DNA of 64,000 nt, taken from a virus. The translations under genes were made by a program, and so were the position numbers. Under the pieces are notes generated by a model that was given only the letters and a program-made list of their open reading frames with translations, was not told the DNA's origin and searched no databases. This document shows positions 301 through 58,867 of the stretch, piece by piece (within the stretch, counting starts at the first letter, position 1; every line of letters starts with the position of its first letter). The stretch covers positions 32,001-96,000 of IMG/VR virus record IMGVR_UViG_3300042197_003184, one strand, 5' to 3'.

Positions 301-3300
301 ATGGCTGGTTTTAATCTAACGGCTCAACTTAATCTACAAGGACCCTCGAATGTCAGAAAAATAGTTTCTGATATTCAGAGACAATTAGGTACTATCAAAG
401 GCACAATAGATTTCACTCTCAATCCGGGTACCGCCAGAAATGTTACTCAATTAAATTCTGCACTCAAAACACTAAACACCACTTTTACTACAACCAACAG
501 AACAGCAGTGTCTGCTGCTAATGCTATATCTCAATTTAATGCTGCCGTTAGCGGTATTAACACCAGATCCTTGACCACGAACATTGCCAGCTCTGCAACA
601 GCCACACAAAAACTGACATCGCAACAAAGACAAGCATCCAAAGCTATTGATGAGTCAGCTTATAGTATGCAGGAGTTTGGTAAGCAGTCTCAATTGGCTA
701 TCAAAAGATTTATTGCCTATAGCGCTGCTGCTGGTCCTATTTTAGCAGTAGCTAATGCTGCTCGTAAGGGTATTAGCGCATTTATAGAGTTTGACTCAGA
801 AGTTGTTAAATTACAACAGGTGACTGGCGAATCAGCAGGAGGACTAAAGGAACTAACTAATACTATCACGTCATTATCTAGTGGGTTGGGCGTTTCATCT
901 AGCGAATTGGTTAATGTTTCGTCCACATTAGCCCAGGCAGGCTTGAGTGCTAGAGATACAGAAAAAGCACTGAAAGCTTTGGCTCTTAGTTCTTTGGCTC
1001 CGTCATTCGATAATATGAATCAGACGGTAGAAGGTAGTATCGCTCTTATGAGACAGTTCGGTATTCAGGCCGGTTCTCTTGAGGGAGCATTGGGGTCGGT
1101 TAATGCCGTGGCTGCTAGATTTGCCGTAGAAGCTAGCGACATTATTGCCGCTATTCAGCGTACTGGTGGTGTGTTTGCCAGTGCCAGTAAGGGGGTTAGC
1201 GAAGGTACAGATGCTCTTAATGAATTTATTGCTGTGTTTACCAGCATTAGAGCGACTACTCGTGAAAGCGCAGAAACTATTGCTACAGGCTTGCGTACTA
1301 TTTTTACAAGAATACAAAGAGGCGGAACAATAGACGCTCTAAAGGAATATGGGGTTAACCTAACGGATTTAGACGGAAAGTTCGTTGGTGCCTACAAAGC
1401 GGTCGAGTTGCTGTCAAAAGGTTTGAATCAGCTTGACCCTAGAGATATTAGATTCTCCAAAATCGTAGAAGAGCTTGGTGGATTTAGACAGATCGGTAAG
1501 GTTATTCCTCTTATCCAGCAGTTTGCTACGGCACAGGAGGCACTCGCTGTTGCTCAACAAGGACAAGGCTCCTTAACAGAAGATGCTGCTGTAGCACAGC
1601 TTGCACTAGCAAATCAGATCTCCAAAGTTCGAGAAGAATTTTTAGCTTTATTTAGAGATATAGGAGCATCTGACACATTTCAAACATTAGCTAAGGGAGC
1701 GCTACAATTAACCAGCGCTATTATTGGCGTTGCTGATTCTGTGAAGGGGGTATTGCCAGTTTTGGCACTAATAGGTTCTATCAAGGGTACACAAGCCTTG
1801 TTGGAGTTCGGCTATGGTTTTACTGGGAGATCATCATCTGGAAGCAATAGAAAAAATACTCGTAATTTTGCTACTGGCGGTTATGTCCCCGGTGTTGGTG
1901 ATACAGATAGCATACCAGCCAATCTAACCCCGGGCGAGTATGTTATGAGTAAAAGGGCTGTTAGATCTATCGGTGTTGGAAATTTAAATAAAATGAACAA
2001 AGCTGGTGGTGGTAAAATATCAGATTATGGCGGAGCGCCTGCTGGTACAACCATCAACAACAGAGAAAATAAACCTGTTGGTATATCTAATGATACCTTT
2101 AGTTATTCAGGATTTTTTAATCCCCAAGGGATTTCTGTCACGATATCTTACGACAAAAAAAATAAAAGATATACAGCTCAAGCCCCAGCCGGATCCAAGG
2201 TTTCTTTAACCAAAAACGATATCAAAACCCTATTCAAAAACAATAAAGCTTCAGCGACAAGATTCGAAGAAATTAGTAGGGGTACTCTGGGAGGAACATT
2301 AGCCAATACCACAGACCCTAATTATCCTATCGATATTATTGATGGACAAAAACTATACGACACAAAGCTTTCTGTACCAGGAAACTATAAAGAAAAAGAA
2401 GCGGTACTAAAGGTTTTAAACTATAAACTAGATAAAGCCAATATAGGATATCAATATAACCAAGGCTCACAAGCGATCAAATTGTCTAGACCATCACCTA
2501 GACTACTAGGAGCTAATCTGACGCCAGCTTCTGATCCATTAAAAGCCCGAGAGTCTTTTTCTTTCGTATATCCAAAATTTGAAAATATACAAACCAAAGA
2601 TATCCAGGATCTACAGACCGATTTACAAAACAGATACGAGACATTCTCTGGTCTTAGTAGTCAACAGAATAGTGGTAAAAATTTATCTGATGCTGCCAAT
2701 AGGCTCAAAAACTTATCACAATCAGCCATAGAAACCTATCAATCCGATGCCAGAGGCATGAGTGCTATTGATGAAATTTCAGGCGATAAAAATATAATAA
2801 ACCTACTAAGAAATTATTCTTCTAGATCTTCTGGTGGCATAATTCAGAAATTTGCTACAGCCGGGGTGGTTAAAGAGCCCCAAAACATACCGGATAAAGT
2901 CGCTGAACTAGCTGCCAAAAAACAGCTATCTATACAGGACGTTATATTGTCTGAGTTCCAAGCTATTACAGGAGCTAGACTAAAGAGAGATCTTGGTATT
3001 CCAAACGCCGTTAGTTTACCCAGGGTTCCAGATTTACGCGCCGGTGTTGGTGTTGATAAAATCAAAGAGTTGGTCAATCGATATCTGCATATGAAAGGTA
3101 TAGAGAGCGCAGCAAAAGCAGAACAGATTGCTAAGATGAGAAAAGTAGCAATCGCAGGATTATTTCCGTTAGATTACTCTAAGGATTTTGATGACTGGAC
3201 TCTAGAAGATGGTAGACAAATCTATGGTATGGTTAGAGGATTTGGGAGTGAGTTCTTAGATGATATTCAACTAATGCAGCAGCGCACCATGGCCGCTCGC

Positions 3301-6300
3301 GACGAGTTTGCCATTAATGTACAAAACCGAAAAGCTTTGGGGTTATTGGCTGGCTCTTCAGTTCAGGGGCCTATTCAGCCTCTGGCGATAGATTTTGATG
3401 AAACACTAGCTCTTGGCACAAAAATGGTTGATGCTCAAGGAGAAGAAGACTTAGCGGCATATCGAGACCCAACAAAAGTTGCCGATAGCTTAGCCAAAGC
3501 TCGCCCAACAACTTTGGCCCAGCGCATGGCTGAGATAGAGAAAAGCAATCCAGGAGTTCTAAGAAAATACTCTAGAATCCTAACCGCCAGACCACAAGAA
3601 ACAGCCAGCATCATTGCTGCTACACTAAATAGATTTGGTTTACCATATCTAGAAAGTGACATCACTGGCCTAGCAAAAGGTCTTGGTACCAATATTCCAC
3701 TAGCAAAAGCCAATGATTTAGGTATCTTTGAAAAACTTATCGACGATAGCGAAGCTAATGTCAAAGCCGTGAGATCGTCGGGGAAAAATGCTTTTCAATA
3801 CGGAGAAGTCGAACCTCTTACCTCCGCAGCTGCTGGAAAAATCGGACAGTCAAATGTTGAAGCTAGTATTTTAGAAGGAGCTATAGGACAACAACTAGGA
3901 TACCCTATAGATATTGCGGCTCTGGAAAGAAATAGAGCAGTAGACTTTCCCCAAGGTCTTGGTAGAGCTGCCCAATATTTTGGCATACCTCCAAATATAG
4001 AAACAGAGATCAAAAGAACATTAGATGGAGACGCTTTTTTTAAAGCCAGAGGAGAGTTCAGTAGGTATTTTACAGAAAATCCTTCTTTGTTTAGCAACGG
4101 AGGTCTGGTTCAGTTTTTTGCAGATGCTGGGGAGATCAAAGATAGATCTACTAAGAATAGAAGAAGAGGAGCTTATGGAGCAAGAGGTTTTGTTCCGTTA
4201 AATAGTAGAGAATACGAAGCCTTTGCTGATAAAGCTTATGCCGAGGCCGGTCCGTATGGTGGTCCTGGATGGGGAAAATCAGCGGGCGTACCAATGCCAA
4301 AAGTTTTGGCGGATTATGCTGAAAAAATAAATAGATATGTTTTTGAAACTGGTGGTGCTGGATTATCTATAGGTAAGAAATTAGTTAGGATTCCAGACAA
4401 TATTGAGCCAGAAGCACTGGAAGCGTTAAAAGAAGACTTGATTAGACAGTATGACGGATGGTATGCTGAGATAGAAGAGGTGATGCCGTTTGGTAAGGCT
4501 ATTAACACATCAAATCCAATAACTGTCGCCAAAAATGCCAGGATGCAAGCTGCCGCTATGGCCGAGGCTGGAAATGCAGCCTATACACAAGCCGAGGATG
4601 CTATATCTGGTTTCAAGAAAACAGGAATCCTTGCTGGTTTTGATCCGTCAATAGAGAGCCATATCAAAACTTCTTTCCCAGCATATATTAAAGAGCTAGA
4701 GTCTTCTTTGAGATCCGAGACAGACCCTGATGAAAAATCTTCTATACAAAGAAAACTCAAAAAGGCTCAGGCAGCATGGCCAGATTATCAATCTTTGTTA
4801 TCTGGTACTCCGGTAGCTAATCAGGGTAGAATTACTGGGCTTTCAGAAACTCTCAATACCCTATTGGAAAGATATGGTAGTCCGGTATCTTTTGGCGAAA
4901 TAGATAATATTATCAAAGCTATGGGCTCTAAATTGCTTGGCAAAGCCTCTGGTGGTCTCATATCTTCTTTTGCTAGTGGTGGCAAAATTGGATTAGATGA
5001 TATTCGCAAAACCATAGAGGATAAATATCCCGATTATAAGTTTAGAATTAATCCAAAATCTAGTGGTTTTGGCTATAGAATGTTAGTAAGACCAGCTTCC
5101 AAAGATGCTCCTGAATCTTTGATGGCTTTTGATCTGGTGTCCAGACTATCTGATGCTCCAGCATTGGCAGAAAAACTCATAGGCAGAATACAAGAACAAC
5201 AAGGTGCTCAAAAATTTGCTTCTGGTGGTTATATTCCTGCTATGGTCAGTAATGGAGAAGCATTTGTACCCCCCGAAACCGCACAGAAGATAGGCTTTCA
5301 TACTCTAAACAGAATGAATCAAGCTGATCGTAATGGTATGGGTCAATTTGCTGGTGGAGGAGATATTAGTTTATTTAAAGGACCAGGTAGTGGGACCAGC
5401 GATAGTATAGGGCCTATTCCTTTGCCTGTTGGTGGTTTTGTTATTCGTGAAGCGGCTACCAGAGCTTTGGGTTTATCTAGAAAAGGTGGTGGTCCTATAG
5501 GACAAATCAGGTCTTTTGCTGTCGGAGGAAATAAAGGAGTTCCTGTATTGGGGACTAATAGACCCGATATTGTAAGTAGGTCAACCGTTGCCGTGTCTCC
5601 AGACACTATTCAGGGCGTTGCCACCTTGATCGATATTCTAGGAGAACTCGGTAGTGTAGCAAAAAATTCCGCAGATCTCATTAAAACCAATGGAGAGATT
5701 AGTTATAAGGTAGTAGAAAAAGCATTGGTTAAAGACATAGAAAGATTAAAAATATCTGGAGCAGGAATAGATAAAATTGCAATTGCTGAAAAATTATTAT
5801 CTGAGACTAGAAATAAAGGTAAAGCAGAAGTAGATAAACAAAAAAACCTACAAGGATTATCCTCTTTGAGAGGTAGTTCTACCACAGCCATACTTGGTGG
5901 ACAAACCGTAGGTAATCTACAAGCAGGAGCTGGCGCTGGTCAGCAAGCCATTGAAACACAAGCTCAGATGATAATAGAAGAAAAGATCAAAGCTCGTGGA
6001 GGGAAGGTATCAGATAAGCAAAGAGCTAAGATAGTTGAGTCGTCGTATGTTGATGCTGCATCTCAAATAACTGGAGTTAATAAAAAAGATTTTAAGGCTG
6101 CTGGTATAGGAGGATCAGATATACAGCAATATATTGCTGAATCGATGAGAGATCGTAAGACCCTATCCCAAATGGATAAACAGCTTATTGCCATAAAGCA
6201 AGAAGAAGTCCGTAGATCTGCAAATTTTTCTAGTTTGTCCAGAACAGAACAACAGAGGCTGTTACAACAAGCCAAACAAACAGCCGAACAAGAAATTAAA

Positions 6301-9300
6301 ACCAGAAGAGAAATCGTTAATCAATTAGCAGCCGAACAGGGTCGAGCAGGTGTGGGCGATGGTTCCGGTTCTATGGCTAGCGGACTATTTAGAAGACTAG
6401 AGAATCCTTTGGTTGCTCTTGGTCTTAGTAGTATGGGATCATTATTGGGATCCGGCACTCCTGGCAGTTCCAGCGAAGCTTCTCAAAACGCAGGTATTCA
6501 ATCTGGCATATCTACACTTAGTCAAGGATTATTTTTATCAGGACAAGTAGCTAGTATATTAGGTCCGGTAGCCGGTGGTGCTACTTTAGCAGCTTCGGCT
6601 TTGGCTTCGATAGCCAGCGCTTTCAAAGATGGGCGCAACGCATTTATAGAATTTGAGAAAAACCTAAGATCACAAAGGTTACAGAATACGCTTGAGGCAT
6701 TAGGTAACACATTTGCCCAACTAGAGAAAGACGTTAAAAATTTAGATCTACAAAATCAGGTATCTTCTCAACTAGTATCTGCTGGGTCAGAAGCGCAATC
6801 TTTAAACGATATTGTTACAGAAATACCTAAAGCGTTTTGGGTCAATATGTTTGATGCTGCTTTTAGCAGCAATCAGAGAGAAGCTTCGGATAGATCAAGA
6901 ATACTTGAAAAATTTGGAATATCAGCATATTTGTCTTCTACTTCCGCTTTTGGTTCAGAAGATAACAGAAGATTTTTCAACAGACAACTAATACCAGAAC
7001 AAGCACTAGCCAATGCAAGAAGTTTTTCTGAGGTAGGATTAAATACTCGTAGATTCATAGAAAATAGGGCAGATGCTGGAGCTAGCCTCAACGAAATAAT
7101 GAACTCGGCCGACTTTGCTCAGTTTGCTCGAAACATAGCTTTATCTAATGTTGAAGTTCAGAAACAAATATTGGCTATACAAAACTCAACATCTGCCAAT
7201 AAAGAAGCCGAACAACAGGCTATTATCACCAGATATGCAGAATCAGAAACCATAAAAATCGCACAAGCAGCTTCTAGACGTAGAAATTCCGAAGGATTAG
7301 ACAGAGAAACCAGATCATTCTCTGTTAGTATACAAAGAATTTCTCAAAATATGCAGGACGTAATTTCTGTCATAAATAGTAATCTTACTAGATTTAATGA
7401 AAAAATAGAGTACACCGTAGCAGCCATGTCTGGACAAGCCAGATCTGGACAGGTGTCTTTTGGTACTCTAGACGTTTTAAGGTCACCAAACGCCTTTTCT
7501 GGTTTCGACAGACAATCAGCCGCCGACAGAGCAGGATCTTTATTTGGTGGCGACCAAAAACTCATCAGCTCCCTCCTTGTGCTAAACAAGAACCTAGAAG
7601 AAAATATTATGAGAGCTATAGATTCTACTATAGCTAATAATCCATCTTCTAGCGATACAAAAATAGGTTTAAGTATAGACCAAGCTGTTCAAAACACTAT
7701 TAATCAATTAAACCTACCAGACGCTATAACCAAACAACTTAGCAGAGAAATAGGATTGGCCGTTGATAGACTGAGACAAAGCGGTAAAGAAAAGATAGAT
7801 TTTGAAGCATTAAAAAACGAGGTGCCTCAGCTAGAAAATATTATATCTAGCACTAGAGTTGCCCAGGAAGGGGCGATAAAGGCTTTGGAAAACTGGCAAA
7901 ATCAATTAAATGAGTTGACTCAGGCCATGAATAAAAGCTCGGATCTACAAATTTCTGCTGCTGATCGTAGAAACCAAGCCGAAGATATCGTAATTAATAG
8001 CAGTATAGAACTAGCTAAAGCGCTAGGTAGGAATTTCTCTGCTGGCTTTGGTAATAACTTAAGAGATAGACGTACCGCACGATTAACGGGAGGAGCTACT
8101 TCCCCAGAGGATATTTCAAACAGGTTAAGGAATTTAACACAACTCGGGGAAAGTCAATCAGCCAGCCTAGCTGCTCAATCAGAAAGAAGTGTTGGAGATA
8201 CCGGATCTTTGGATTCTATTGTGGCTAATCAAAGAGCTTTGAGACAAACGAATAACGAACTCAGACAAACACAACAGGCTTTGAAAAATTTAGCAGAAAA
8301 TTCCGAGGCGGCATCTCTGGCCTTATCTTCTATCCAAGAAACACAACAAAGACAGCAAGGCCGGGTTGCCTTAATAGAAAAACTAGTATCTAGTACGCCA
8401 GAAGAACTGTATAAATTCAGTGCCGCAGCAGACAGGCTTCAAAAAATAGCCAGAGGACAACCGGTTAATCAAACCTCTGACGAAAGAAGAGAAACATTAT
8501 CTGTATTTAATGATATAGCTCCTATGTTGGGTTCTTCTTTAGAAGCCAATAATATGAGAGCCAATATGCTTGAATCAATGCTTAGTGAATCTGGTGTTGG
8601 TTTAACTCCTCAGTTTCAGGCTATATTAAATGCTCTCAGAGATCCCCAAACCGACCCAGCCACACAAAAGGCGATAGAAGAATATTCTAAAGCTATTGAT
8701 ATACAATCTAGAGCTAATATAGAATTAGCAAAAATTAATACAGACCTAGCAGACCAAATAGCAGATGCTTCGGCTCGTGCCCTAAAGGATGCTTTAACAA
8801 ATCAGGTAGTTAAGTTTGAAAGCACTCAACTGGCAGATATTGCCAGAGGACTAAGATCATTAACCACCACAACACAAAACCAAGCAGCACCCCCCGTAGC
8901 CAGAGCAGATGGTGGTATAATCTATGCTGCTACAGGAACTAACGTACCAGATTTTGCTCCGAGAGGAACAGATACGGTACCTGCTATGTTGACACCAGGA
9001 GAATTTGTAGTTAATCGTTCGGCAACACAAAAAAATCTGCCACTACTTAATGCTATAAACAATGGCTATAGTAAAGGAGGCAGGGTTTCTTATTATCAAG
9101 ACGGAGGTTATGTTAGCAGTACGCTGAGAGAAGAATATCAAAACAGAGAACCATTTAAGGAATCTAAAGGCTCCTATATGGTATTGCCAGAAAATATAGG
9201 AGAGCCAGAAGATTTATATACTTGGAACAAAGTTCGCAGTGTTGCTGTTCCGTCAACAGATAATGTTGAAAAAATTAATATAAACTCTAAACCCAATGAT

Positions 9301-12300
9301 CAGCTATATATAAAAGCCAATAGACAACTAGGTTATGGTTATACGGGATTTAGGGCTCAATATGATACTTCTGCCGGAGAGTATAGTTTTTGGAGATTCA
9401 ACCCAGAGGGGTCTTTATCTCCGAGTATACTAAAGCCTTTAGGTCGCTATTATTTAAGCCCAAGACTTCTTGAGCTTGGTTCAGGTTCAGAAAAACAAAA
9501 GCTGGTCGATCAAACCGGCATACCAAACCGAACAGAAATCGAGGATTATACAGCAAGACTAAATAATATTTTGAAACATCTACCGTCAAAAGCATCCAGA
9601 TCTGCTGGACAAGGAACTATTGAAATTGATGGCTCTAAAATCATAGTAGAAGATCAAAAGTTTGCTGGTAGCACCGGACAACTAACTGCTTATACCAAAA
9701 ACCAAGAAGTTGTTGTAAAAAATCTAGCCAAGTCTCTTGATAGCAACTTAAATTATGGATTATATACATCGTCTCCTATGGTTGGTTTGACCCATAGTCT
9801 TGATTCTATAATGGATTTTTCTGGAGATCATTGGGGTCGTTTTTTCTTTGGTAGTGCTGCTCAAACCCGCAAAGAATCCTCTGGTAGTTCTGAGTCTTTA
9901 TTACGAAGCACTAGTGGCGGTAAATATGCTTTAACGTATAATCCAAAATTAGATAGCTTATTTGATCCTGATAAATTACCAGACATTATTAGTGCATTGA
10001 AATCGTCTCAGGAAGCACTAGCTAATGAGGAATTTGCAACATCAGATAAGAATACTGGTATAGACAAACAGAATACAGCACTTAGAGAGTTATATATTGG
10101 CACCATAGCTAAACAAATATTGGAGGGTAGAGCATCCTCAAATCAACAAGATGGGCAATCAACAGACAAAGAATATGCTTATAAGTTTGGACCAGAATTT
10201 GCTAATGCATCTAAATTAACAGTTTATGGTGTGACAACTGACGAATGGACTAAATCCAGAGATGGCTCTGCTTCTTATCTACAAAGATTTCAAAGCATTA
10301 TCGGCAAACAAAAAGAAGCTAAATACTGGGATCCTGATGGGACGTACAAAACTCCGTTCGATATTGCTCCTAGAAGCGATTTGAATAGTAAGAAATTTTT
10401 CCCTTGGGTAGCTGGTGACGCTCCGGATCTGGCCGTTTTGGATGCTGAATTAAAAGAACGAGCAGATGCCACCCAGGCAGAAACGTATGGTAAACAAGGA
10501 GACACTATCCTAAAAAGCGGCAGATTCAAATTTAATGAGCTGCCATTTACTGTGCCATACGCTATGTCTTATGTGTCTTTAGAAAAGCCCAAAAAATATG
10601 ACGCAGCTACGGGGACTTATACAGACGAGAACCTACTGCCCAATGGGCTACAAAAAGCAGATATTATTAGTTCAGATAACTTATTTAGGAAAGCTAAGGA
10701 TGATTTTCCTAGTGTAACGGCAATTACGGATGCTACCGGCTCCAATGATAGCTCTGGTTCGTTAGGCTATGTTGCCGGTTTGATACAGAACTTTGTGAAT
10801 CAGTCTGATAGGTTCAAAAAATATTTTGGACTAATCAAAACGTCCTACTCAGAAGATCAGCCATCTGTTGAATTACAAAAGTTAAAATCGCAATTAAAAT
10901 ATTCTACTATTAATTTGGCTGGTAGTCAAAGTCCTTTCTTTGGCTTCTTAACGGGCTCAAATAAACAGTATACAGGTTATGATTCGCTAACCAGACCACT
11001 AACTATTGGCGATGTATTATTGGACCTAATAGACAGAGAAGCCAAGAATAAAACCTCAACTTTATCTGCTATAAAAAATCAAAGATATTCGTCTAAACCA
11101 GAAGACTCTGACAACAAAACCAACTTCAAACTATCCCAGTATCCTGCACTGGCTCAGGGGTTAATATACTCAGCATATGACCTATTTGGTTCTGGTAAGA
11201 CATACGAAATGCCTAATAGTTTGGGTCGTGGCTGGTTTAGTCCTCGAATGAGCCAAAGATATAATAGTATTTTTGAGATTCAGCCTGAACTTATTCAGGA
11301 TTATATGAAACAGCTATCTATTATTTTTGGAAATCAATATGCTAATCTAGAATCGAACTTATCTAGATTTGTTGGAACACCAGAATATGACAAAGCTATA
11401 GAGACCATGAGCTACTTACAAGGTGCTCAAAAGGCTTTCTTTATGATTGGTGATCCGGCGACTGGTACGTCGGTACTAGGAGGCTTGCTGGATAGATCAA
11501 TGTTTGATGATAGGGTTTTTGACCAAGCCGAAAAAGAAGCAATAACCAATGTTTTCAAATCGTTAGGCGCTTCTGGTAAAGACTCCAGAATTCGCAGTCG
11601 TTTATTGGATACTATATCGGAGGATGAGAAAGTAGATTGGGAAAGACAATTAACTGGGTCTAGAATTAATGATCCCAAAACAAAAAACTCAGCAACACAA
11701 GAATTTGGCGAAGTGAATGTTCCACAAACATTCAATGATCTTTTTGATTTAGGTATTAATCCATATAATCAATTTACTAATCGAAATATTAGAAAATCTA
11801 TTTTTGATAGATTTTTAAGCAATATTGCAACAGCTCAAGACAGAAGAGGCAGACCACTATTCTCTACTAGTGGCGGTAAAGAGTTTGGAGATGCTTTAAG
11901 CAATCTGCGTTTGTGGTATGGTGGAAATGACGAAGATTGGCAGGGCTTAGATTATTTATATGATAAAAACATCAAACCCATAGAGAATACCGATACTGTC
12001 CCATCATATAATGATAGATGGAACGAACTCAATAGCTTTAATAGAAAAGATAATCTCTATAAAGATGCTGAAACCTCTCACTCATTAGTGGGCGGTAGAG
12101 AAAAATTTGGAGAGCTTCCTCCATTAGATTTTTATAAAGACAGAGGAGACGAGATCCAATATCGACGTACTGGTGGTATTATTTATGCTTCTCAAGGATC
12201 ATTAGTTAACTTTGAGCCTAGAGGCACAGATACTGTTCCTGCGATGTTGACTCCAGGAGAATTTGTCGTAAATCGATCTGCTACGCAAAAACACTTGCCG

Positions 12301-15300
12301 CTATTGAGAGCGATCAACGACGGAGCAAAGGGTTATAGTAGCGGCGGTGTGGTATACCTCAGTAGCGGAGGTTTAACACCAGCACAAGAAACTAGATTTA
12401 ATGAACTTAGTGGTATGTCTTCTAGAAATAGAGAAGAAGAAAATGAGTACATTGATCTGAAAAATAAAAGAATGTCTGGAGGGGCACAATCGAGTTCTAC
12501 AACAACGCAATCTAATATTCAACAGTCACGCAGAACCGCTGTAAGAGAGCGTAATCAGAGAATGGCGCTAATGGCCATACCTCCCAACGAAAGAACTCCA
12601 GAGCAGCAAGAAAGATATAATGCTCTGATAGCTAAGAGAGATAAAGATAGACCAGAAATAGCTAAACGCAATGCTAATTATAGAGCTTCACAAGCTTATA
12701 ATGCAGAAGCTGAAAGACGCAGTAACGAAAGACTAGTGAATCAATATGCCGATGAATACAGATCGTCTGGTAGCGAATTATCCCCAGAAGAGTGGGCAGC
12801 ACAAAACAAACCAGGAATGAGGGGTCAGAGACTGGACGGCTTCTTAGCTAGAGTATCTGGTTCAGACTATGATTATGGTCGTAAAATGACTGACCAGGAA
12901 TTTGCTGACGCTGGTACAGCTAATAGAGCAAGGCTAGATGCTTCAACACAACAAAAGGCTCAACAATACACCTCAGGGTCTTCACCTGCTCAACAGCCAG
13001 CCGCACAAACCGGCTCCAAACCAATGTTACCGCCTAGTGAGCAAGAACAAGAACCAGCAGATTCCACAGTCCCTTCTATACCTGCGCCTCCGGCACCGGC
13101 GGCAGAACCACCAAAACCAGCGCCAGCACCAGCGGTTGAGCCACCCAAACCAGCGCCAGCACCAGCGGTTGAGCCACCCAAACCAGCGCCAGCACCAGCA
13201 CCAGCACCAGCGGTTGAGCCACCCAAACCAGCTACAGTACCAGCACCAGTTTGGGCAAGAGGAGGAACAGACGAGGATCCGTTTGCTGAACGAGCCAAAC
13301 CATCACCAGCAGACGCCGCTAAAACAAGAGCAGAAGAAAGAAGAACAGCTTCTGAGGAGCAACAAACAGAAGCAAGAAAAGAAAGAAGAGAGCTAAGACG
13401 AGCAGCTGCTCAACAAAGAGAAGATATTATAGCAGAAACTCGTAGACGACTAGAAATGACTATTAGTCGTGAAGAAGCAACAATTAAAGATAAAGCCAAG
13501 AACAGAGAAGAGTCCGGTTGGTGGGCTGCGTCTATGAGAGGTATGGGATTAATGTCTGATCCTTACGAAGCAGAAATGGCCGCTTCTCGACAAAGAATCA
13601 CAGCAGCTAGAATGGGTTTGTCAGAATTAAAGACTGCTACTGTAGACGTTTCTCCGTCAGGATATGTGCGAGATACGTTCAAAGTTGAAAACTTTAATGC
13701 TGCTAGAAGATTAGCTGGATTAGACGAGGTAACTACCGGAGTTGACTCTGCTGGAAATATGACAGTATCTCGCGTGGAAAAAGATGAGACAGAAAAAGCT
13801 AATGATGCTGCAAGAAGAGCTGCTGATACGGCCTATAGCAGACAGTTGATGGATAATGAGCAGTCACAGATTACAGCAGCTAGAGACATTAGTATAGATA
13901 GTGTTTTGGCTGTTGGTGGAGTAGCTACAGGAGTTGCTGGTATGGCTACTCGTGGTGGCACAATGGCTCTTCAACAAGCAGGCAAAATAGGACTTAGACA
14001 AGTAGCTAAAACAGCAGCCTTGGAAGGCGCTGCTGAAGGTTTAGCTGGAGGAACCACAAGAGCAATTGATGACGTAACTAGAGGAGCTAAAACAACTCAA
14101 GAAGGCATATCTTCCGCACTATTAGAATCTACTATAGGAGGTGTTGCAGGTAGTGTGTTGGGTCCTGCTTTTTCTGTAGGAATACCGGCTGCTGGCAGAG
14201 TATTAAGTGGTATGGGTTCGTTTGTTGGAGATATGGCGAGTCCTATTACCAAGCCAATAGGCGACTTAATGTCATCTACATATGATTCAATTTCTCGCGG
14301 CTTATCAGGAATGTCAGATTATTTGGATTTACCCACCCAGTCCAGATACTCAGCATTACTACCGTCCGATCCTAAGCAAGCAAAACAATACAGGGCTCTT
14401 GTGTCTGCTGGCCGTGGACCTAGAGAAGCTATCGAAGAACTAGATGAAATCCTAAGAACCGGCTCTAACAGGTTTGACAAACAAGAAGAAGCTTTCGCCC
14501 AATGGACATCTAAGAATCTCTTTGATTTTGTTGGTATGCAGCCCGGTAGTTTGGTAAGTAGACTACGAAGCAATCCTCTCGACGGGTTATTTGATAATAT
14601 TAACTCGGGACCAGGAATAGGCAGACCAAGAGGGTCTTTATCGGAAATTGCTGGGGTAGATAAGTATAGAATACCCAATTTATCAGACGAAGCTGCCCGA
14701 CCAGTACAGAAAATGAAAGTAACAGCAGCTCAAGTCACAGAATATCAAAAATTAATAGATTCTGGAATGAACCCGGCATCGGCTCAACAACAGGCACTAA
14801 GACAAACTTCAACAACAGAAACAGCGCCCGCCACGGCCGCTCAAATCTATAGACAAAATTTACCAAGAGCGATAGACGATCCATCTCGTATGGAACAGGG
14901 TTTGTATAGAACGCAAGTGCGTAAGGGCTCATATGACAATCCCGATAATATGAACAGGTGGTTTTATCCAAAAAATCCTGGTATAGATATGATCGGAGAC
15001 TCTATAAATACCGGATATAAACCCAGATTTGCTGTAAAAGAAGGTAAAATGAACGAAATGATTGAGCGCATGGCAGCCGACGAACGGTTGTCTTGGATGC
15101 TTGGTCCGAGCGGTTTTAAACAGCAGCCGTTTGGAGAAGAGGTATTATCAGGTAGAGACAACAGATTTTTAGTTCTGTATAGCAGTAGAGGTACGTCCGA
15201 CGAAGCTTTAGCTATCACTCAACGTATGGAAGAGATTGGAGAAGATCTTCTTTTTGCAGGAGGGGCGAAGGATTATGGCGACAGAATGGCGCTAGGAAAA

Positions 15301-17502
15301 TTCGGCAGTACCAGATATGATCCAGATCTCACAACGCTTACCAATCCCCCAGGACTACAAAAAACACTATTAGACTTAAGACAAAGATGGCTGTCAGAGC
15401 GTGGCTCTTCTTCATACGATCCTGATTTCGCTGCTTTTGACCAAGCATTAGTCAAACAACAAGACTACAGACTAGCTCTTTATGAGGCCGGTAAAAGAGC
15501 ACCAGGCACAATGATGGATAAATTTTATAAGGATTATCCCGACTTATTCCCGAGTTATGCTGGAGATATCAGCTACTCACCAGCCTCTACTTCGGCACTA
15601 TCGGATGCTGTACCAGTAGCAGCTAAACAACCTAACACATCAACGTCTACTGCTCCGACTGACAAGATTACAATAACCCCTCCCAATGACATAGCACAAC
15701 CAACCGCGATTTTCAACAGAATAAGAGCAACAAGACAACTACAGTCTTCAGCAGAAAATTCAGCTGGTATCAATCTATCAGCACCTGAACAATTGTCTTT
15801 GACAGAAGATGCTTTGTCCAGACTACAAGAAATTCAACTAGATAGCGACTACGTCAGCAATCGCGCCCTTGGTAATTTTCGCGGTGATATCAAACAGGGT
15901 GAATCCAAAACAGGATTGTTTAGTGGTACTATACAGATTGGAAAAAAGAGCATAGGCAATCTAGAAGTTTTAGGACACGAGAGACTACACGCCGCATCCT
16001 TTATCATGCAACAATTAGATAATATTACTGGAGGAAATATAGCTCCAGAAGTTTTAGATTTAATGGCGAACAAATTAAATTTAAATTTAAAATCGGTAGA
16101 GATAATAAGATCTGGCGCTGGTAAAAGAAGTCTAAATTTTGCAAAAAACACAACCGATCCAGAAAAGCTTTCCGCTTTACAAAACATGGATATTTTACCA
16201 GCATCACTACCGGATCAAAAAATACTAAAAGCCTCCGTTCTTGCAGAAAGATTCCTAGAAGAGTACCAGGTTGCTCAAGCATTAAAATTTGGAGAAAATA
16301 TATCTAATATAAATTTACGTAGTGTTGATACTACAAGAAAAGCCCTTCTAAAAGAACTATCACAATTTACAACAGCAGACAGTATAGCTCCAATTAAAAA
16401 GAGACTGTCAGAAGTTATTCCAACAAACAAATTAGATACACTACTTGATTCTGGTGCTGGTCCTTTTACTCCTAAAGATATATACCCACTTCCCACCAAT
16501 AAATCAGGAATACTAGATAATATCTTGTCTATTATACAGTCTCCTGGAAATCTGAGTGAAAATCTAGGTTCCAAACTAATGCAACAACCTGGCCTAAAAG
16601 ACTTTATCGACAAGATAGCGTCTGATAATCCTCAGGTAGCAAGCCTAGCAAAATCAGCTAAAACCCCATTAAAATTCTTAACTAATCTATCAACATTTGG
16701 ATTGGGGTTCTCTGCTGCTGGCATTGCTCTAAGAAATCTAATGTCAACAGATCCCAATCGGCCGAATGTTGTAGAGGCTCGAACCAGATCTTTGATGCCC
16801 GGAGAAAATCCAGAAGACCCAAATACTAAACCCTTAAGATCTTATTATTCTGACGGTACCCCAGTACCAGAAGACGAACAACCCAAAGAAACAAAAAGAA
16901 TGAGCACCGGAGGTATTGTTTATGCCAATAATGGTGCTTTTATAGCTGCTACCAGAGGATCTGACAGTGTTCCGGCAATGCTAACTCCGGGCGAGTTTGT
17001 GGTAAATAGACAAGCAGCAGCTAATAATATGACATTATTACATGCTATTAATAGTGGTCATTATACTCACGGAGGATTAGTTAAATATTTAGCTAATGGC
17101 GGGGTGGTACAGCCCAAATATTTGGAGTATGGCTCTCAAAACCCAGTAAATTCTATTAACAATCAGGCTGCTAATAGTGGTGTATTATCTAGTAGAGTTA
17201 GCCAGAATATGGTATCGCAACAGGTTCAGGCACCATCTTTTGACTACTCAAAAATGGAGCAATTATTTAATAGGTTTGAACAAGCTATGGATAGGAGCGC
17301 CAGCGCCATTAAAGACGGAGGCACAATCGAACACAAACTCACAGGAGAAGTCAAAACAGCATACGACCAGAAATCTATCCAAGATATTATTGGTAGATCT
17401 GTTGGTATCAGTAATTCCAACACTAACGCCCAAGTCAATAATGCTCAAGCAAATACAAATAGAACATTATTCAACAATACTGACGGAGCAATAGACCCCT
17501 AG
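301..17502 (+). CDS. Giant tail tape measure protein (5733 aa) with embedded enzymatic cargo domains
   Basis: The N-terminal ~500 aa read as a TP901-type TMP core (FIEFDSEVVKLQQVTG...LAQAG...TRESAETIATGLRTIFTRI...GGFRQ). There are long helical Ala/Gln/Leu-rich stretches, hydrophobic segments and repeated FAxGG/DSVPAMLTPGEFV modules. It lies upstream of tail/baseplate genes. Confidence 0.9.
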   Translation: MAGFNLTAQLNLQGPSNVRKIVSDIQRQLGTIKGTIDFTLNPGTARNVTQLNSALKTLNTTFTTTNRTAVSAANAISQFNAAVSGINTRSLTTNIASSATATQKLTSQQRQASKAIDESAYSMQEFGKQSQLAIKRFIAYSAAAGPILAVANAARKGISAFIEFDSEVVKLQQVTGESAGGLKELTNTITSLSSGLGVSSSELVNVSSTLAQAGLSARDTEKALKALALSSLAPSFDNMNQTVEGSIALMRQFGIQAGSLEGALGSVNAVAARFAVEASDIIAAIQRTGGVFASASKGVSEGTDALNEFIAVFTSIRATTRESAETIATGLRTIFTRIQRGGTIDALKEYGVNLTDLDGKFVGAYKAVELLSKGLNQLDPRDIRFSKIVEELGGFRQIGKVIPLIQQFATAQEALAVAQQGQGSLTEDAAVAQLALANQISKVREEFLALFRDIGASDTFQTLAKGALQLTSAIIGVADSVKGVLPVLALIGSIKGTQALLEFGYGFTGRSSSGSNRKNTRNFATGGYVPGVGDTDSIPANLTPGEYVMSKRAVRSIGVGNLNKMNKAGGGKISDYGGAPAGTTINNRENKPVGISNDTFSYSGFFNPQGISVTISYDKKNKRYTAQAPAGSKVSLTKNDIKTLFKNNKASATRFEEISRGTLGGTLANTTDPNYPIDIIDGQKLYDTKLSVPGNYKEKEAVLKVLNYKLDKANIGYQYNQGSQAIKLSRPSPRLLGANLTPASDPLKARESFSFVYPKFENIQTKDIQDLQTDLQNRYETFSGLSSQQNSGKNLSDAANRLKNLSQSAIETYQSDARGMSAIDEISGDKNIINLLRNYSSRSSGGIIQKFATAGVVKEPQNIPDKVAELAAKKQLSIQDVILSEFQAITGARLKRDLGIPNAVSLPRVPDLRAGVGVDKIKELVNRYLHMKGIESAAKAEQIAKMRKVAIAGLFPLDYSKDFDDWTLEDGRQIYGMVRGFGSEFLDDIQLMQQRTMAARDEFAINVQNRKALGLLAGSSVQGPIQPLAIDFDETLALGTKMVDAQGEEDLAAYRDPTKVADSLAKARPTTLAQRMAEIEKSNPGVLRKYSRILTARPQETASIIAATLNRFGLPYLESDITGLAKGLGTNIPLAKANDLGIFEKLIDDSEANVKAVRSSGKNAFQYGEVEPLTSAAAGKIGQSNVEASILEGAIGQQLGYPIDIAALERNRAVDFPQGLGRAAQYFGIPPNIETEIKRTLDGDAFFKARGEFSRYFTENPSLFSNGGLVQFFADAGEIKDRSTKNRRRGAYGARGFVPLNSREYEAFADKAYAEAGPYGGPGWGKSAGVPMPKVLADYAEKINRYVFETGGAGLSIGKKLVRIPDNIEPEALEALKEDLIRQYDGWYAEIEEVMPFGKAINTSNPITVAKNARMQAAAMAEAGNAAYTQAEDAISGFKKTGILAGFDPSIESHIKTSFPAYIKELESSLRSETDPDEKSSIQRKLKKAQAAWPDYQSLLSGTPVANQGRITGLSETLNTLLERYGSPVSFGEIDNIIKAMGSKLLGKASGGLISSFASGGKIGLDDIRKTIEDKYPDYKFRINPKSSGFGYRMLVRPASKDAPESLMAFDLVSRLSDAPALAEKLIGRIQEQQGAQKFASGGYIPAMVSNGEAFVPPETAQKIGFHTLNRMNQADRNGMGQFAGGGDISLFKGPGSGTSDSIGPIPLPVGGFVIREAATRALGLSRKGGGPIGQIRSFAVGGNKGVPVLGTNRPDIVSRSTVAVSPDTIQGVATLIDILGELGSVAKNSADLIKTNGEISYKVVEKALVKDIERLKISGAGIDKIAIAEKLLSETRNKGKAEVDKQKNLQGLSSLRGSSTTAILGGQTVGNLQAGAGAGQQAIETQAQMIIEEKIKARGGKVSDKQRAKIVESSYVDAASQITGVNKKDFKAAGIGGSDIQQYIAESMRDRKTLSQMDKQLIAIKQEEVRRSANFSSLSRTEQQRLLQQAKQTAEQEIKTRREIVNQLAAEQGRAGVGDGSGSMASGLFRRLENPLVALGLSSMGSLLGSGTPGSSSEASQNAGIQSGISTLSQGLFLSGQVASILGPVAGGATLAASALASIASAFKDGRNAFIEFEKNLRSQRLQNTLEALGNTFAQLEKDVKNLDLQNQVSSQLVSAGSEAQSLNDIVTEIPKAFWVNMFDAAFSSNQREASDRSRILEKFGISAYLSSTSAFGSEDNRRFFNRQLIPEQALANARSFSEVGLNTRRFIENRADAGASLNEIMNSADFAQFARNIALSNVEVQKQILAIQNSTSANKEAEQQAIITRYAESETIKIAQAASRRRNSEGLDRETRSFSVSIQRISQNMQDVISVINSNLTRFNEKIEYTVAAMSGQARSGQVSFGTLDVLRSPNAFSGFDRQSAADRAGSLFGGDQKLISSLLVLNKNLEENIMRAIDSTIANNPSSSDTKIGLSIDQAVQNTINQLNLPDAITKQLSREIGLAVDRLRQSGKEKIDFEALKNEVPQLENIISSTRVAQEGAIKALENWQNQLNELTQAMNKSSDLQISAADRRNQAEDIVINSSIELAKALGRNFSAGFGNNLRDRRTARLTGGATSPEDISNRLRNLTQLGESQSASLAAQSERSVGDTGSLDSIVANQRALRQTNNELRQTQQALKNLAENSEAASLALSSIQETQQRQQGRVALIEKLVSSTPEELYKFSAAADRLQKIARGQPVNQTSDERRETLSVFNDIAPMLGSSLEANNMRANMLESMLSESGVGLTPQFQAILNALRDPQTDPATQKAIEEYSKAIDIQSRANIELAKINTDLADQIADASARALKDALTNQVVKFESTQLADIARGLRSLTTTTQNQAAPPVARADGGIIYAATGTNVPDFAPRGTDTVPAMLTPGEFVVNRSATQKNLPLLNAINNGYSKGGRVSYYQDGGYVSSTLREEYQNREPFKESKGSYMVLPENIGEPEDLYTWNKVRSVAVPSTDNVEKININSKPNDQLYIKANRQLGYGYTGFRAQYDTSAGEYSFWRFNPEGSLSPSILKPLGRYYLSPRLLELGSGSEKQKLVDQTGIPNRTEIEDYTARLNNILKHLPSKASRSAGQGTIEIDGSKIIVEDQKFAGSTGQLTAYTKNQEVVVKNLAKSLDSNLNYGLYTSSPMVGLTHSLDSIMDFSGDHWGRFFFGSAAQTRKESSGSSESLLRSTSGGKYALTYNPKLDSLFDPDKLPDIISALKSSQEALANEEFATSDKNTGIDKQNTALRELYIGTIAKQILEGRASSNQQDGQSTDKEYAYKFGPEFANASKLTVYGVTTDEWTKSRDGSASYLQRFQSIIGKQKEAKYWDPDGTYKTPFDIAPRSDLNSKKFFPWVAGDAPDLAVLDAELKERADATQAETYGKQGDTILKSGRFKFNELPFTVPYAMSYVSLEKPKKYDAATGTYTDENLLPNGLQKADIISSDNLFRKAKDDFPSVTAITDATGSNDSSGSLGYVAGLIQNFVNQSDRFKKYFGLIKTSYSEDQPSVELQKLKSQLKYSTINLAGSQSPFFGFLTGSNKQYTGYDSLTRPLTIGDVLLDLIDREAKNKTSTLSAIKNQRYSSKPEDSDNKTNFKLSQYPALAQGLIYSAYDLFGSGKTYEMPNSLGRGWFSPRMSQRYNSIFEIQPELIQDYMKQLSIIFGNQYANLESNLSRFVGTPEYDKAIETMSYLQGAQKAFFMIGDPATGTSVLGGLLDRSMFDDRVFDQAEKEAITNVFKSLGASGKDSRIRSRLLDTISEDEKVDWERQLTGSRINDPKTKNSATQEFGEVNVPQTFNDLFDLGINPYNQFTNRNIRKSIFDRFLSNIATAQDRRGRPLFSTSGGKEFGDALSNLRLWYGGNDEDWQGLDYLYDKNIKPIENTDTVPSYNDRWNELNSFNRKDNLYKDAETSHSLVGGREKFGELPPLDFYKDRGDEIQYRRTGGIIYASQGSLVNFEPRGTDTVPAMLTPGEFVVNRSATQKHLPLLRAINDGAKGYSSGGVVYLSSGGLTPAQETRFNELSGMSSRNREEENEYIDLKNKRMSGGAQSSSTTTQSNIQQSRRTAVRERNQRMALMAIPPNERTPEQQERYNALIAKRDKDRPEIAKRNANYRASQAYNAEAERRSNERLVNQYADEYRSSGSELSPEEWAAQNKPGMRGQRLDGFLARVSGSDYDYGRKMTDQEFADAGTANRARLDASTQQKAQQYTSGSSPAQQPAAQTGSKPMLPPSEQEQEPADSTVPSIPAPPAPAAEPPKPAPAPAVEPPKPAPAPAVEPPKPAPAPAPAPAVEPPKPATVPAPVWARGGTDEDPFAERAKPSPADAAKTRAEERRTASEEQQTEARKERRELRRAAAQQREDIIAETRRRLEMTISREEATIKDKAKNREESGWWAASMRGMGLMSDPYEAEMAASRQRITAARMGLSELKTATVDVSPSGYVRDTFKVENFNAARRLAGLDEVTTGVDSAGNMTVSRVEKDETEKANDAARRAADTAYSRQLMDNEQSQITAARDISIDSVLAVGGVATGVAGMATRGGTMALQQAGKIGLRQVAKTAALEGAAEGLAGGTTRAIDDVTRGAKTTQEGISSALLESTIGGVAGSVLGPAFSVGIPAAGRVLSGMGSFVGDMASPITKPIGDLMSSTYDSISRGLSGMSDYLDLPTQSRYSALLPSDPKQAKQYRALVSAGRGPREAIEELDEILRTGSNRFDKQEEAFAQWTSKNLFDFVGMQPGSLVSRLRSNPLDGLFDNINSGPGIGRPRGSLSEIAGVDKYRIPNLSDEAARPVQKMKVTAAQVTEYQKLIDSGMNPASAQQQALRQTSTTETAPATAAQIYRQNLPRAIDDPSRMEQGLYRTQVRKGSYDNPDNMNRWFYPKNPGIDMIGDSINTGYKPRFAVKEGKMNEMIERMAADERLSWMLGPSGFKQQPFGEEVLSGRDNRFLVLYSSRGTSDEALAITQRMEEIGEDLLFAGGAKDYGDRMALGKFGSTRYDPDLTTLTNPPGLQKTLLDLRQRWLSERGSSSYDPDFAAFDQALVKQQDYRLALYEAGKRAPGTMMDKFYKDYPDLFPSYAGDISYSPASTSALSDAVPVAAKQPNTSTSTAPTDKITITPPNDIAQPTAIFNRIRATRQLQSSAENSAGINLSAPEQLSLTEDALSRLQEIQLDSDYVSNRALGNFRGDIKQGESKTGLFSGTIQIGKKSIGNLEVLGHERLHAASFIMQQLDNITGGNIAPEVLDLMANKLNLNLKSVEIIRSGAGKRSLNFAKNTTDPEKLSALQNMDILPASLPDQKILKASVLAERFLEEYQVAQALKFGENISNINLRSVDTTRKALLKELSQFTTADSIAPIKKRLSEVIPTNKLDTLLDSGAGPFTPKDIYPLPTNKSGILDNILSIIQSPGNLSENLGSKLMQQPGLKDFIDKIASDNPQVASLAKSAKTPLKFLTNLSTFGLGFSAAGIALRNLMSTDPNRPNVVEARTRSLMPGENPEDPNTKPLRSYYSDGTPVPEDEQPKETKRMSTGGIVYANNGAFIAATRGSDSVPAMLTPGEFVVNRQAAANNMTLLHAINSGHYTHGGLVKYLANGGVVQPKYLEYGSQNPVNSINNQAANSGVLSSRVSQNMVSQQVQAPSFDYSKMEQLFNRFEQAMDRSASAIKDGGTIEHKLTGEVKTAYDQKSIQDIIGRSVGISNSNTNAQVNNAQANTNRTLFNNTDGAIDP
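13081..13250 (+). repeat. Coding tandem repeat PAPAPAVEPPK (33-nt unit) within the TMP
   Basis: ccagcgccagcaccagcggttgagccacccaaa occurs about 3 times plus degenerate flanks, forming a Pro/Ala-rich linker. Confidence 0.9.
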
Positions 17503-37485: not shown

Positions 37486-37490
37486 TACCA

Positions 37491-56355: not shown

Positions 56356-56383
56356 ATCATAAAACGCCGCGCACGGGTGTCAA
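56356..56383 (-). promoter_or_regulatory. Sigma70-like promoter for ssb
   Basis: On the - strand, TTGACA (56383-56378), 16-nt spacer, TATGAT (56361-56356). The -35 box overlaps the dnaE-C stop codon. Confidence 0.65.
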
Positions 56384-58693: not shown

Positions 58694-58865
58694 TAAATGT
58701 TACCTTTGTGTCGTCTGAAAAATATGTCTGATTATTTGGGTTGGTAACCGCCTGAGCATTGGTCACCTTACAACAGCTAATTCTGTTATCTTGCGTTCTG
58801 ATATACTCGATATCGTTATACAGGAAGCGCTGTCCAACCCCGATATCCCTAAAGTTTTTCTCCAT
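58686..58865 (-). CDS. Small hypothetical protein (59 aa), absent from the ORF track
   Basis: Translated by hand: MEKNFRDIGVGQRFLYNDIEYIRTQDNRISCCKVTNAQAVTNPNNQTYFSDDTKVTFNG. It starts 2 nt after the dnaE-N stop, has GGAG upstream, and its stop overlaps the dnaQ start. Confidence 0.75.
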   Translation of the reverse strand: MEKNFRDIGVGQRFLYNDIEYIRTQDNRISCCKVTNAQAVTNPNNQTYFSDDTKVTFNG

Positions 58866-58867
58866 AA

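What the first reader, a model, noticed from the sequence alone, without database searches (positions are those of the whole stretch)
3376..3800. TMP cargo 2: a complete HAD-superfamily phosphatase domain inside a tail protein
The HAD motifs appear in order: motif I LAIDFDETL (DxDxT, 3391), motif II ILTARP, a candidate motif III Lys (LAKA) and motif IV LIDDSEAN (3742). This pattern is typical of cap-less phage HADs such as the phosphatase module of polynucleotide kinase/RNA-repair enzymes. A HAD in a TMP is unexpected. It could heal RNA ends or dephosphorylate nucleotides or signalling molecules immediately after injection, as counter-defence (inference).
Basis: partly seen in the sequence, partly recalled or inferred. 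Interest (0 to 1): 0.78.

Follow-up and report, generated by a model that had tools for sequence, protein, structure and literature searches.

The report
Phosphatase domain inside phage tape measure
A 5,733-residue tail tape-measure protein of an uncultured 140-kb phage carries an apparently intact HAD-type phosphatase domain, closest to phage T5's dNMP phosphatase and T4's polynucleotide 3'-phosphatase, so the enzyme is probably delivered to the host ready-made at infection.

Summary
Window 3367-3813 (aa 1023-1171 of the ORF at 301-17502) is a real HAD-fold phosphatase domain.

- **Motifs:** They are essentially invariant in 79 homologous domains with a median identity of 38%.
- **Closest family by sequence:** the phage T5 Dmp family, a 5'-dNMP phosphatase (hhalign 91.7%). 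The T4 Pnkp family scores 27% and shuffled controls at most 1.2%.
- **Context:** the domain is nested in a conserved about 410-aa module of a tape-measure protein. In relatives it is optional, duplicated or moved. No kinase or ligase partner is conserved.

It is most likely an active Mg-dependent phosphomonoesterase acting on nucleotides or nucleic-acid ends and delivered with the tape measure. Substrate and site of action are inferred, not shown. The RNA-healing idea is not supported beyond fold likeness.

I found no published report of a phosphatase in a tape measure. This scan had already reached the same reading on a related 231-kb phage (e1-5468403).

The parts
301..17502 (+). Giant tape-measure-like ORF, 5,733 aa
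   Evidence: Uninterrupted ORF. Tape-measure PHROG families match the N-terminus, for example phrog_28 at E 2e-29.
862..1443 (+). Tape-measure core domain (PF10145 PhageMin_Tail), aa 188-381
   Evidence: E 9.4e-22, 78.3 bits against a cut-off of 33.2. The same domain lies at the same place in homologues P0011, P0025, P0044 and P0037.
2833..2865 (+). GG linker motif (GGIIQKFATAG) that opens the module
   Evidence: Regular-expression scan. The same motif type bounds modules in homologues.
2881..4110 (+). Conserved about 410-aa module (aa 861-1270) holding the HAD
   Evidence: AlphaFold2 on alignment A8: mean pLDDT 91.9, pTM 0.77. It is conserved in 30 aligned loci.
3139..3351 (+). N-terminal half of the flanking domain: three strands and a long helix (aa 947-1017)
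   Evidence: Secondary structure of the model. In relatives without a HAD it joins directly to the C-terminal half.
3367..3813 (+). HAD-fold phosphatase domain (aa 1023-1171)
   Evidence: pLDDT about 90 or more. Aligned range 163-311 of the second model and 3-149 of the first. All top PDB matches are HADs.
3391..3405 (+). Motif I, D1031-F-D1033-E-T1035 (nucleophile and acid/base Asp)
   Evidence: Invariant in 79 of 79 homologous domains. Aligns with the DxDGT of T5 Dmp and T4 Pnkp.
3583..3591 (+). Motif II, T1095-A-R1097
   Evidence: T or S in 79/79, A in 79/79, R in 79/79. Aligns with the invariant T86-A87-R88 of the T5 Dmp family and with S211-G212-R213 of T4 Pnkp.
3706..3708 (+). Motif III, K1136
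   Evidence: 78/79. Aligns near the T5 Dmp family's invariant K140 in a low-confidence stretch of the alignment.
3742..3747 (+). Motif IV, D1148-D1149
   Evidence: 78/79 and 79/79. Aligns with DD of T5 Dmp (D160-D161) and of T4 Pnkp (D277-D278).
3823..4077 (+). C-terminal half of the flanking domain (aa 1175-1259) with conserved E1187, E1192, R1212, D1215, E1236-x-K1238 and E1252
   Evidence: D1215 and K1238 are invariant in alignments A5 and A8; the other residues are 90% or more conserved or less. It is confident only when folded together with the N-terminal half: pLDDT about 50 and 85-95. The fold is not identified.
4099..4131 (+). GG linker motif (GGLVQFFADAG) that closes the module
   Evidence: Regular-expression scan. 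The GG pair is nearly invariant at the end of alignment A4.

Best explanation
Residues 1023-1171 form a genuine and very probably active Mg-dependent HAD phosphomonoesterase. It belongs to the phage nucleotidase and polynucleotide-phosphatase branch. Its closest known family by sequence profile is T5 Dmp, a 5'-dNMP phosphatase. Its closest solved structure is the T4 Pnkp 3'-phosphatase.

The domain is nested between the two halves of a conserved flanking domain, in a GG-bounded module of a giant tape-measure protein.

**Shown:** the motifs, their conservation, the fold, the family relations and the nested, movable architecture.

**Inferred:**
- D1031 forms the aspartyl-phosphate intermediate, D1033 acts as acid/base, and T1095, R1097 and K1136 hold the phosphate.
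- The domain travels with the tape measure, which leaves the tail first at infection, and so works before any phage gene is expressed.
- The substrate carries a nucleotide-type phosphate. My odds are about 0.45 for free (d)NMPs, 0.2 for 3'-phosphate nucleic-acid ends and 0.25 for something else.

The confidence of 0.55 is for the whole statement, with free nucleotides as the favoured substrate. That it is a real and intact HAD domain I put at about 0.9.
For: - **Motifs:** present in order, and chance is excluded.
- **Conservation:** catalytic residues are invariant in 79 domains of median 38% identity.
- **Fold:** pLDDT is about 90 or more over the HAD in two models.
- **Foldseek on PDB:** the listed matches are almost all annotated HAD-family proteins.
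- **ESM Atlas:** by features and by shape the nearest clusters are small viral HADs of the Phage_T5_dNMPase, HAD_PNKP, Acid_phosphat_B and NT5C families.
- **BFVD:** after two giant proteins of uncultured viruses, most named matches are phage polynucleotide kinase/phosphatases.
- **hhalign:** T5 Dmp family 91.7%, E 7.6e-7, 135 columns. These include DxDxT, a shared D..G..D(L/I)..Y stretch in the cap, T-A-R, K and DD. Reversed and shuffled controls reach at most 1.2%.
- **PHROGs:** of 25 members, 13 hit phrog_415 (named polynucleotide kinase), 9 hit a 5'-3' deoxyribonucleotidase family and 6 hit a nucleotidase family. Best E-values are about 2e-5 to 9e-5.
- **Host protein:** it has a tape-measure core, as its homologues do.
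- **T5 Dmp background:** Dmp is a pre-early dNMP phosphatase that raises virulence (bioRxiv 10.64898/2026.04.02.716235).
Against: - **Curated models:** no HAD model in Pfam or NCBIfam matches the window's own domain at E up to 1 to 10. The window's own PHROG hit is weak (E 0.082). PF25109 finds nothing in this genome.
- **No functional data:** there is no activity, virion-proteomic or localisation evidence.
- **Copy number:** tape measures are present in only a few copies per virion (general knowledge). That makes bulk depletion of nucleotide pools doubtful.
- **Space:** a folded 150-aa domain, let alone a 410-aa module, fits poorly in a tail-tube lumen. Where it sits in the virion is unclear.
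- **Dispensability:** the HAD is absent from many relatives that keep the flanking domain, so it is not needed for tail assembly.
Confidence: 0.55

Rival explanations
1. Polynucleotide end-healing enzyme. The domain removes 3'-phosphates (or 2',3'-cyclic phosphates after opening) from RNA or DNA ends cut by host anti-phage nucleases, or trims the ends of the incoming phage DNA. A few copies per cell would be enough.
Against: - The profile match to the T4 Pnkp family is weak (27%) compared with T5 Dmp (91.7%).
- PF25109 HAD_PNKP gives no match.
- No conserved 5'-kinase or ligase module lies beside it. The only Walker-A-like string in the protein, at aa 1320, is missing from the homologous module of L040, and the next module differs from phage to phage.
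- No T5 Dmp relative is in the PDB, so the PDB ranking cannot choose between the two families.
Confidence: 0.2
2. Phosphatase for a substrate that is not a nucleic acid or nucleotide. Candidates are a phosphoprotein of a host signalling or defence pathway, as with the Legionella HAD effector Lem4, or an envelope or periplasmic phosphate ester met while the tape measure crosses the cell wall, as with the periplasmic class B and C acid phosphatases.
Against: These matches score below the nucleotide and polynucleotide phosphatases. The acid phosphatases among them are themselves nucleotide phosphatases. The sequence-profile and PHROG evidence points to nucleotidases.
Confidence: 0.17
3. The HAD fold is kept for a non-catalytic role, for example as a plug, a spacer or an assembly or folding unit of the tape measure, or it acts only during virion assembly inside the producing cell.
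For: It lies in a structural protein. It can be lost without loss of the module.
Against: Every catalytic residue is invariant or nearly so across 79 diverged domains, while average columns vary freely. That is the pattern of a working active site. The domain is duplicated or moved as a unit in some phages, as expected of selected cargo.
Confidence: 0.07
4. A chance run of short motifs in a very long protein, with no domain behind it.
For: The motifs are short and the protein has 5,733 residues. The curated Pfam and NCBIfam models are silent.
Against: 0 of 2,000 shuffles carry the pattern. The fold is confident and is that of a HAD. The profile match stands far above controls.
Confidence: 0.01

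Closest known systems
Phage T5 Dmp, deoxynucleoside-5'-monophosphatase (Pfam PF26880 Phage_T5_dNMPase)
   Same: HAD with DxDxT, T-A-R, K and DD, plus a shared D..G..D(L/I)..Y stretch after motif I. hhalign gives 91.7% over 135 columns. It is the nearest family in the ESM Atlas by features and by shape. In T5 the enzyme acts at the very start of infection.
   Different: T5 Dmp is a free-standing pre-early gene product made after first-step DNA transfer. Here the domain is part of a virion protein. A four-residue insert of the T5 family holding invariant S30 and R33 has no counterpart. PF26880 is not in the local library, so it could not be scored. The substrate is untested.
Phage T4 Pnkp (PseT) 3'-phosphatase domain and bacterial Pnkp1 (Pfam PF25109 HAD_PNKP)
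   Different: No PF25109 match. hhalign gives only 27%. There is no fused or conserved 5'-kinase and no ligase.
Class B and C bacterial acid phosphatases (AphA, e(P4), plant VSP)
   Different: They are secreted or periplasmic free-standing oligomeric enzymes. No significant sequence match was found.
Enzymatic inserts in tape-measure proteins (mycobacteriophage TM4 peptidoglycan-hydrolase motif; T5 pb2 C-terminal peptidase)
   Same: A catalytic unit carried inside the tape measure and brought to the host at ejection (PMC1796659; bioRxiv 10.1101/2022.09.20.507954, both listed).
   Different: Those act on peptidoglycan. A phosphatase insert was not found in the literature searches.

Membership tests
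HAD superfamily | Motif I, hhhDxDx(T/V), after a hydrophobic strand | tested here: met
   LAIDFDETL at aa 1028-1036. D, D and T are each 79/79 in homologues.
HAD superfamily | Motif II, Ser/Thr at the end of strand 2 | tested here: met
   ILT1095. T or S in 79/79. It lies at the end of strand 71-75 of the model.
HAD superfamily | Motif III, Lys | tested here: met
   K1136, 78/79. It lies in helix 112-119 of the model, before strand 4.
HAD superfamily | Motif IV, acidic pair (DD or DxxxD) at the end of strand 4 | tested here: met
   LID1148D1149. 78/79 and 79/79.
HAD superfamily | Rossmann-like alpha/beta core fold | tested here: met
HAD superfamily | Squiggle and flap elements after strand 1 | not testable with these tools
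HAD superfamily | Match to a curated HAD-clan sequence model | tested here: inconclusive
   The window's domain has no Pfam or NCBIfam hit. Single members give weak hits to HAD_2 and 5-nucleotidase. PHROG HAD families are hit by 6 to 13 of 25 members, best E about 2e-5.
HAD superfamily | Mg-dependent phosphoryl transfer through an aspartyl-phosphate | not testable with these tools
   Needs an enzyme assay.
Phage T5 Dmp family (PF26880) | Profile similarity over the whole domain | tested here: met
   hhalign of A6 against A7: 91.7%, E 7.6e-7, 135 columns. Controls reach at most 1.2%.
Phage T5 Dmp family (PF26880) | Score above the PF26880 gathering threshold | not testable with these tools
   PF26880 is absent from the local Pfam copy.
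Phage T5 Dmp family (PF26880) | The family's own invariant residues outside the general HAD motifs | tested here: inconclusive
   T-A-R and the aromatic residue at Y49 (Y or F in 76 of 79 here) are shared. S30 and R33 fall in a gap, and other invariant residues are not matched.
Phage T5 Dmp family (PF26880) | 5'-dNMP phosphatase activity | not testable with these tools
   Needs an enzyme assay.
T4 Pnkp-type phosphatase (PF25109 HAD_PNKP) | Match to PF25109 | tested here: not met
   No match at E up to 10 anywhere in the 139,964-base genome. No Pfam hit on the domain.
T4 Pnkp-type phosphatase (PF25109 HAD_PNKP) | Structural similarity to the Pnkp phosphatase domain | tested here: met
T4 Pnkp-type phosphatase (PF25109 HAD_PNKP) | Partner P-loop 5'-kinase domain | tested here: not met
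   Only one Walker-A-like string (aa 1320), which is not conserved in L040. Neighbouring modules vary between phages.
Phage tail tape-measure protein | Tape-measure core domain above the curated threshold | tested here: met
   PF10145 scores 78.3 bits against 33.2. phrog_28 matches at E 2e-29.
Phage tail tape-measure protein | Position among tail genes and length matched to tail length | tested here: inconclusive
   The large ORFs downstream carry only weak tail-like hits. The tail length of this uncultured phage is unknown.

The most novel reading that the evidence does not exclude
The module is a ready-made host-takeover unit carried in the virion. The flanking domain, with its conserved E..D..ExK residues, would be a nuclease and the nested HAD a dNMP phosphatase. 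Together they would do at the protein level, before any transcription, what T5 does with its pre-early A1 and Dmp genes. Alternatively the HAD destroys a phosphorylated nucleotide needed by a host defence. Either way tape measures would be vehicles for cytoplasmic enzymes, not only for wall-cutting ones.
Probability: 0.15. Interest if true: 0.85.

Novelty: new variant of a known kind. Interest (0 to 1): 0.6.

Why it matters
Tape measures are known to carry wall-degrading inserts. A conserved, catalytically intact nucleotide-type phosphatase in at least 78 diverged giant tape-measure proteins would widen that picture to enzymes likely to act on cytoplasmic substrates, delivered as protein ahead of the DNA.

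It offers a concrete, assayable domain for testing whether tape-measure segments reach the cytoplasm in an active form. It also shows how a 'cargo train' of modules is gained, lost and shuffled in uncultured phages with 17-kb tape-measure genes.

Tried and rejected
- **Curated models:** Pfam, NCBIfam and phmmer or profile searches of PDB sequences gave nothing significant for the domain. The only PDB profile hit was a HAD (3cnh) at E 1.4, aligned on motif IV.
- **GenBank phages:** tblastn of the domain and of the whole module found no match.
- **Species genomes:** no relative in the collection of one genome per species, so no prophage copies were seen.
- **First locus scan:** the single-sequence scan of viral contigs failed and alignment A1 was too loose to use. 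Alignment-based scans then worked.
- **Flanking domain fold:** attempts failed. The PDB profile search gave only chance-level hits. The ESM features gave a weak 0.76 hit. In the structure searches the HAD filled every list. Its PD-(D/E)xK reading is therefore untested, not rejected.
- **Neighbouring modules:** Pfam found nothing in the modules after the HAD module here or in L049 and L098.

Full report
**What is at the site**

The window holds one uninterrupted ORF at 301-17502 (+) of 5,733 aa. Its N-terminus carries the tape-measure core domain PF10145 at aa 188-381 (78.3 bits, cut-off 33.2) and several tape-measure PHROG families. The genome is an IMG/VR virus record of 139,964 bases, estimated 94% complete. 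This one gene is therefore about 12% of the genome.

- D1031-F-D1033-E-T1035
- I-L-T1095-A-R1097-P
- K1136 in PLAKAN
- L-I-D1148-D1149

An ordered four-motif pattern occurs once in the protein and in none of 2,000 shuffles.

**Relatives**

An exhaustive HMMER search with aa 1001-1270 found 105 cluster representatives. Nearly all are proteins of 2,000-7,800 aa. Four that I checked have the same N-terminal tape-measure core.

Scans of IMG/VR and metagenome contigs gave dozens of loci on phage contigs of up to 238 kb. None turned up in bacterial species genomes or in GenBank phages.

An HMM built from my alignment recovered 79 near-full-length HAD domains in 78 of those proteins; one protein carries two copies. 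At a median of 38% identity to the window, the catalytic residues are invariant or nearly so: D1031, D1033, T1035, T/S1095, R1097 and D1149 in 79 of 79, and K1136 and D1148 in 78 of 79. The average column keeps its commonest residue in only 54% of sequences. That is the signature of a working active site.

**Fold**

AlphaFold2 on a 25-sequence alignment gave pLDDT of about 90 for residues 5-150 of the query. The strand-helix order is that expected of a HAD core, with about 55 residues of short helices between motifs I and II.

- Foldseek against the PDB returned almost only annotated HAD-family proteins.
- The ESM Atlas, by sequence features and by shape, points to small viral HADs of the Phage_T5_dNMPase, HAD_PNKP, Acid_phosphat_B and NT5C families.
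- BFVD lists two giant proteins of uncultured viruses first, then mostly phage polynucleotide kinase/phosphatases among the named matches.

**Which HAD family**

Curated models are nearly silent on the window's own sequence (phrog_415 at E 0.082). Two facts qualify that silence. The local Pfam copy lacks PF26880. PF25109 is present and finds nothing in this genome.

I built family alignments from T5 dmp and T4 pseT, taken from their GenBank records, and their homologues, and compared profiles.

| Comparison | hhalign probability | Details |
|---|---|---|
| T5 Dmp family | 91.7% | E 7.6e-7, 135 columns |
| T4 Pnkp family | 27% | 126 columns, motifs aligned correctly |
| Reversed or column-shuffled controls | at most 1.2% | |

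The match to T5 Dmp covers all four motifs and the T-A-R triplet. It also covers a D..G..D(L/I)..Y stretch in the region after motif I, which in HADs shapes substrate choice (general knowledge of the superfamily). Among the 25 aligned members, 13 hit phrog_415, 9 hit a 5'-3' deoxyribonucleotidase family and 6 hit a nucleotidase family.

No relative of T5 Dmp is in the PDB. The first rank of T4 Pnkp among solved structures therefore does not contradict this.

**Architecture**

The C-terminal neighbour of the HAD was poorly modelled on its own (pLDDT about 50). It became confident when the 160 residues upstream were added (mean pLDDT 91.9, pTM 0.77).

In many relatives the HAD is missing, and the upstream three-strand part joins straight to the downstream part. 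In L097 and L107 the HAD lies after the downstream part, behind a GG linker. The HAD is thus a self-contained unit nested in, or placed next to, a conserved flanking domain.

That flanking domain has strongly conserved E, R, D, ExK and E residues. Its fold could not be identified. The restriction-endonuclease-like reading is open.

The module after the HAD module differs from phage to phage. The single Walker-A-like string of this protein (aa 1320) is not conserved. No kinase or ligase accompanies the HAD.

**How it most likely works**

By the established HAD mechanism, D1031 would take the phosphoryl group and D1033 would act as acid/base. T1095, R1097 and K1136 would hold the phosphate, and D1148 and D1149 would hold Mg. 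This is inference from conserved residues, not shown here.

All near relatives by profile, PHROG, Atlas and structure act on nucleotides or nucleic-acid ends, so I favour such a substrate. Free (d)NMPs come first because of the T5 Dmp profile match and the conserved aromatic residue at position 1054 (Y or F in 76 of 79).

T5 Dmp is a pre-early enzyme that turns dNMPs from degraded host DNA into nucleosides and raises virulence. Carrying a similar enzyme on the tape measure would move that step ahead of transcription.

Against bulk pool depletion stands the small number of tape-measure copies per virion (general knowledge). That keeps the end-healing reading and other low-copy targets alive. 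Whether the module is folded in the virion, is cut out at the GG linkers, or reaches the cytoplasm is unknown.

**Novelty**

Literature searches for a phosphatase or nucleotidase in a tape measure found nothing. The known inserts are wall hydrolases.

The scan's own notes show the same domain in tape measures of other genomes. One earlier follow-up on a 231-kb phage reached the same conclusion. My results agree with it and were derived independently here.

Noticed in passing
window 3139-3351 and 3823-4077: The flanking domain is split by the HAD. It has conserved E1187, E1192, R1212, D1215, E1236-x-K1238 and E1252 (D1215 and K1238 invariant). It models confidently only when both halves are present. 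Its fold is unidentified, and a restriction-endonuclease-like site is possible.
   Followed up: partly
window 1915, 5236, 8980, 12238, 16972 (aa 539, 1646, 2894, 3980, 5558): Five copies of a P(A/G)xL(T/S)PGE(F/Y)V-type motif that is typical of tape-measure C-termini (phrog_35029, phrog_37649). About ten short GG..(F/Y)..G linkers also occur. The ORF reads like several tape-measure units and cargo modules strung together.
   Followed up: partly
window 13093-13249: Tandem 33- and 45-base repeats that encode PAPAVEPPKPA-type proline-rich units inside the tape measure.
   Followed up: no
L097:3331-3774, L107:3331-3774; P0009: In L097 and L107 the HAD lies after the flanking domain's C-terminal half, behind a GG linker. 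P0009 (7,122 aa) carries two HAD copies. Many loci (L098-L109, L112, L100, L091) lack the HAD altogether.
   Followed up: yes
L049:2239-3732: In this relative a true-looking P-loop (GVAGSGKSS) follows the HAD module by about 100 residues. Pfam gives no family for it.
   Followed up: partly
L053, L064, L066, L067, L094, L098 (downstream of the module): A conserved AHE(T/S)FHDIQGYL stretch (HExxH, zincin-like) forms the next module in several relatives. The window has HERLH at aa 5226 (nt 15976-15990).
   Followed up: no
window 4258-4281: A Walker-A-like string, GGPGWGKS, at aa 1320 in the next module. The homologous module in L040 lacks it, so it is probably chance.
   Followed up: yes
window 56380-60736 (-): The family A DNA polymerase is split into two ORFs that match the two halves of phrog_405. 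Between them lies a 231-aa RNase_T-type exonuclease ORF at 57998-58693.
   Followed up: partly
window 60733-61815 (-): A PD-(D/E)XK nuclease (PF12705, E 1.9e-17) lies next to the polymerase genes.
   Followed up: no
window 31186-44060 (+): Two further very large ORFs (2,099 and 2,189 aa) downstream of the tape measure have no Pfam match.
   Followed up: no
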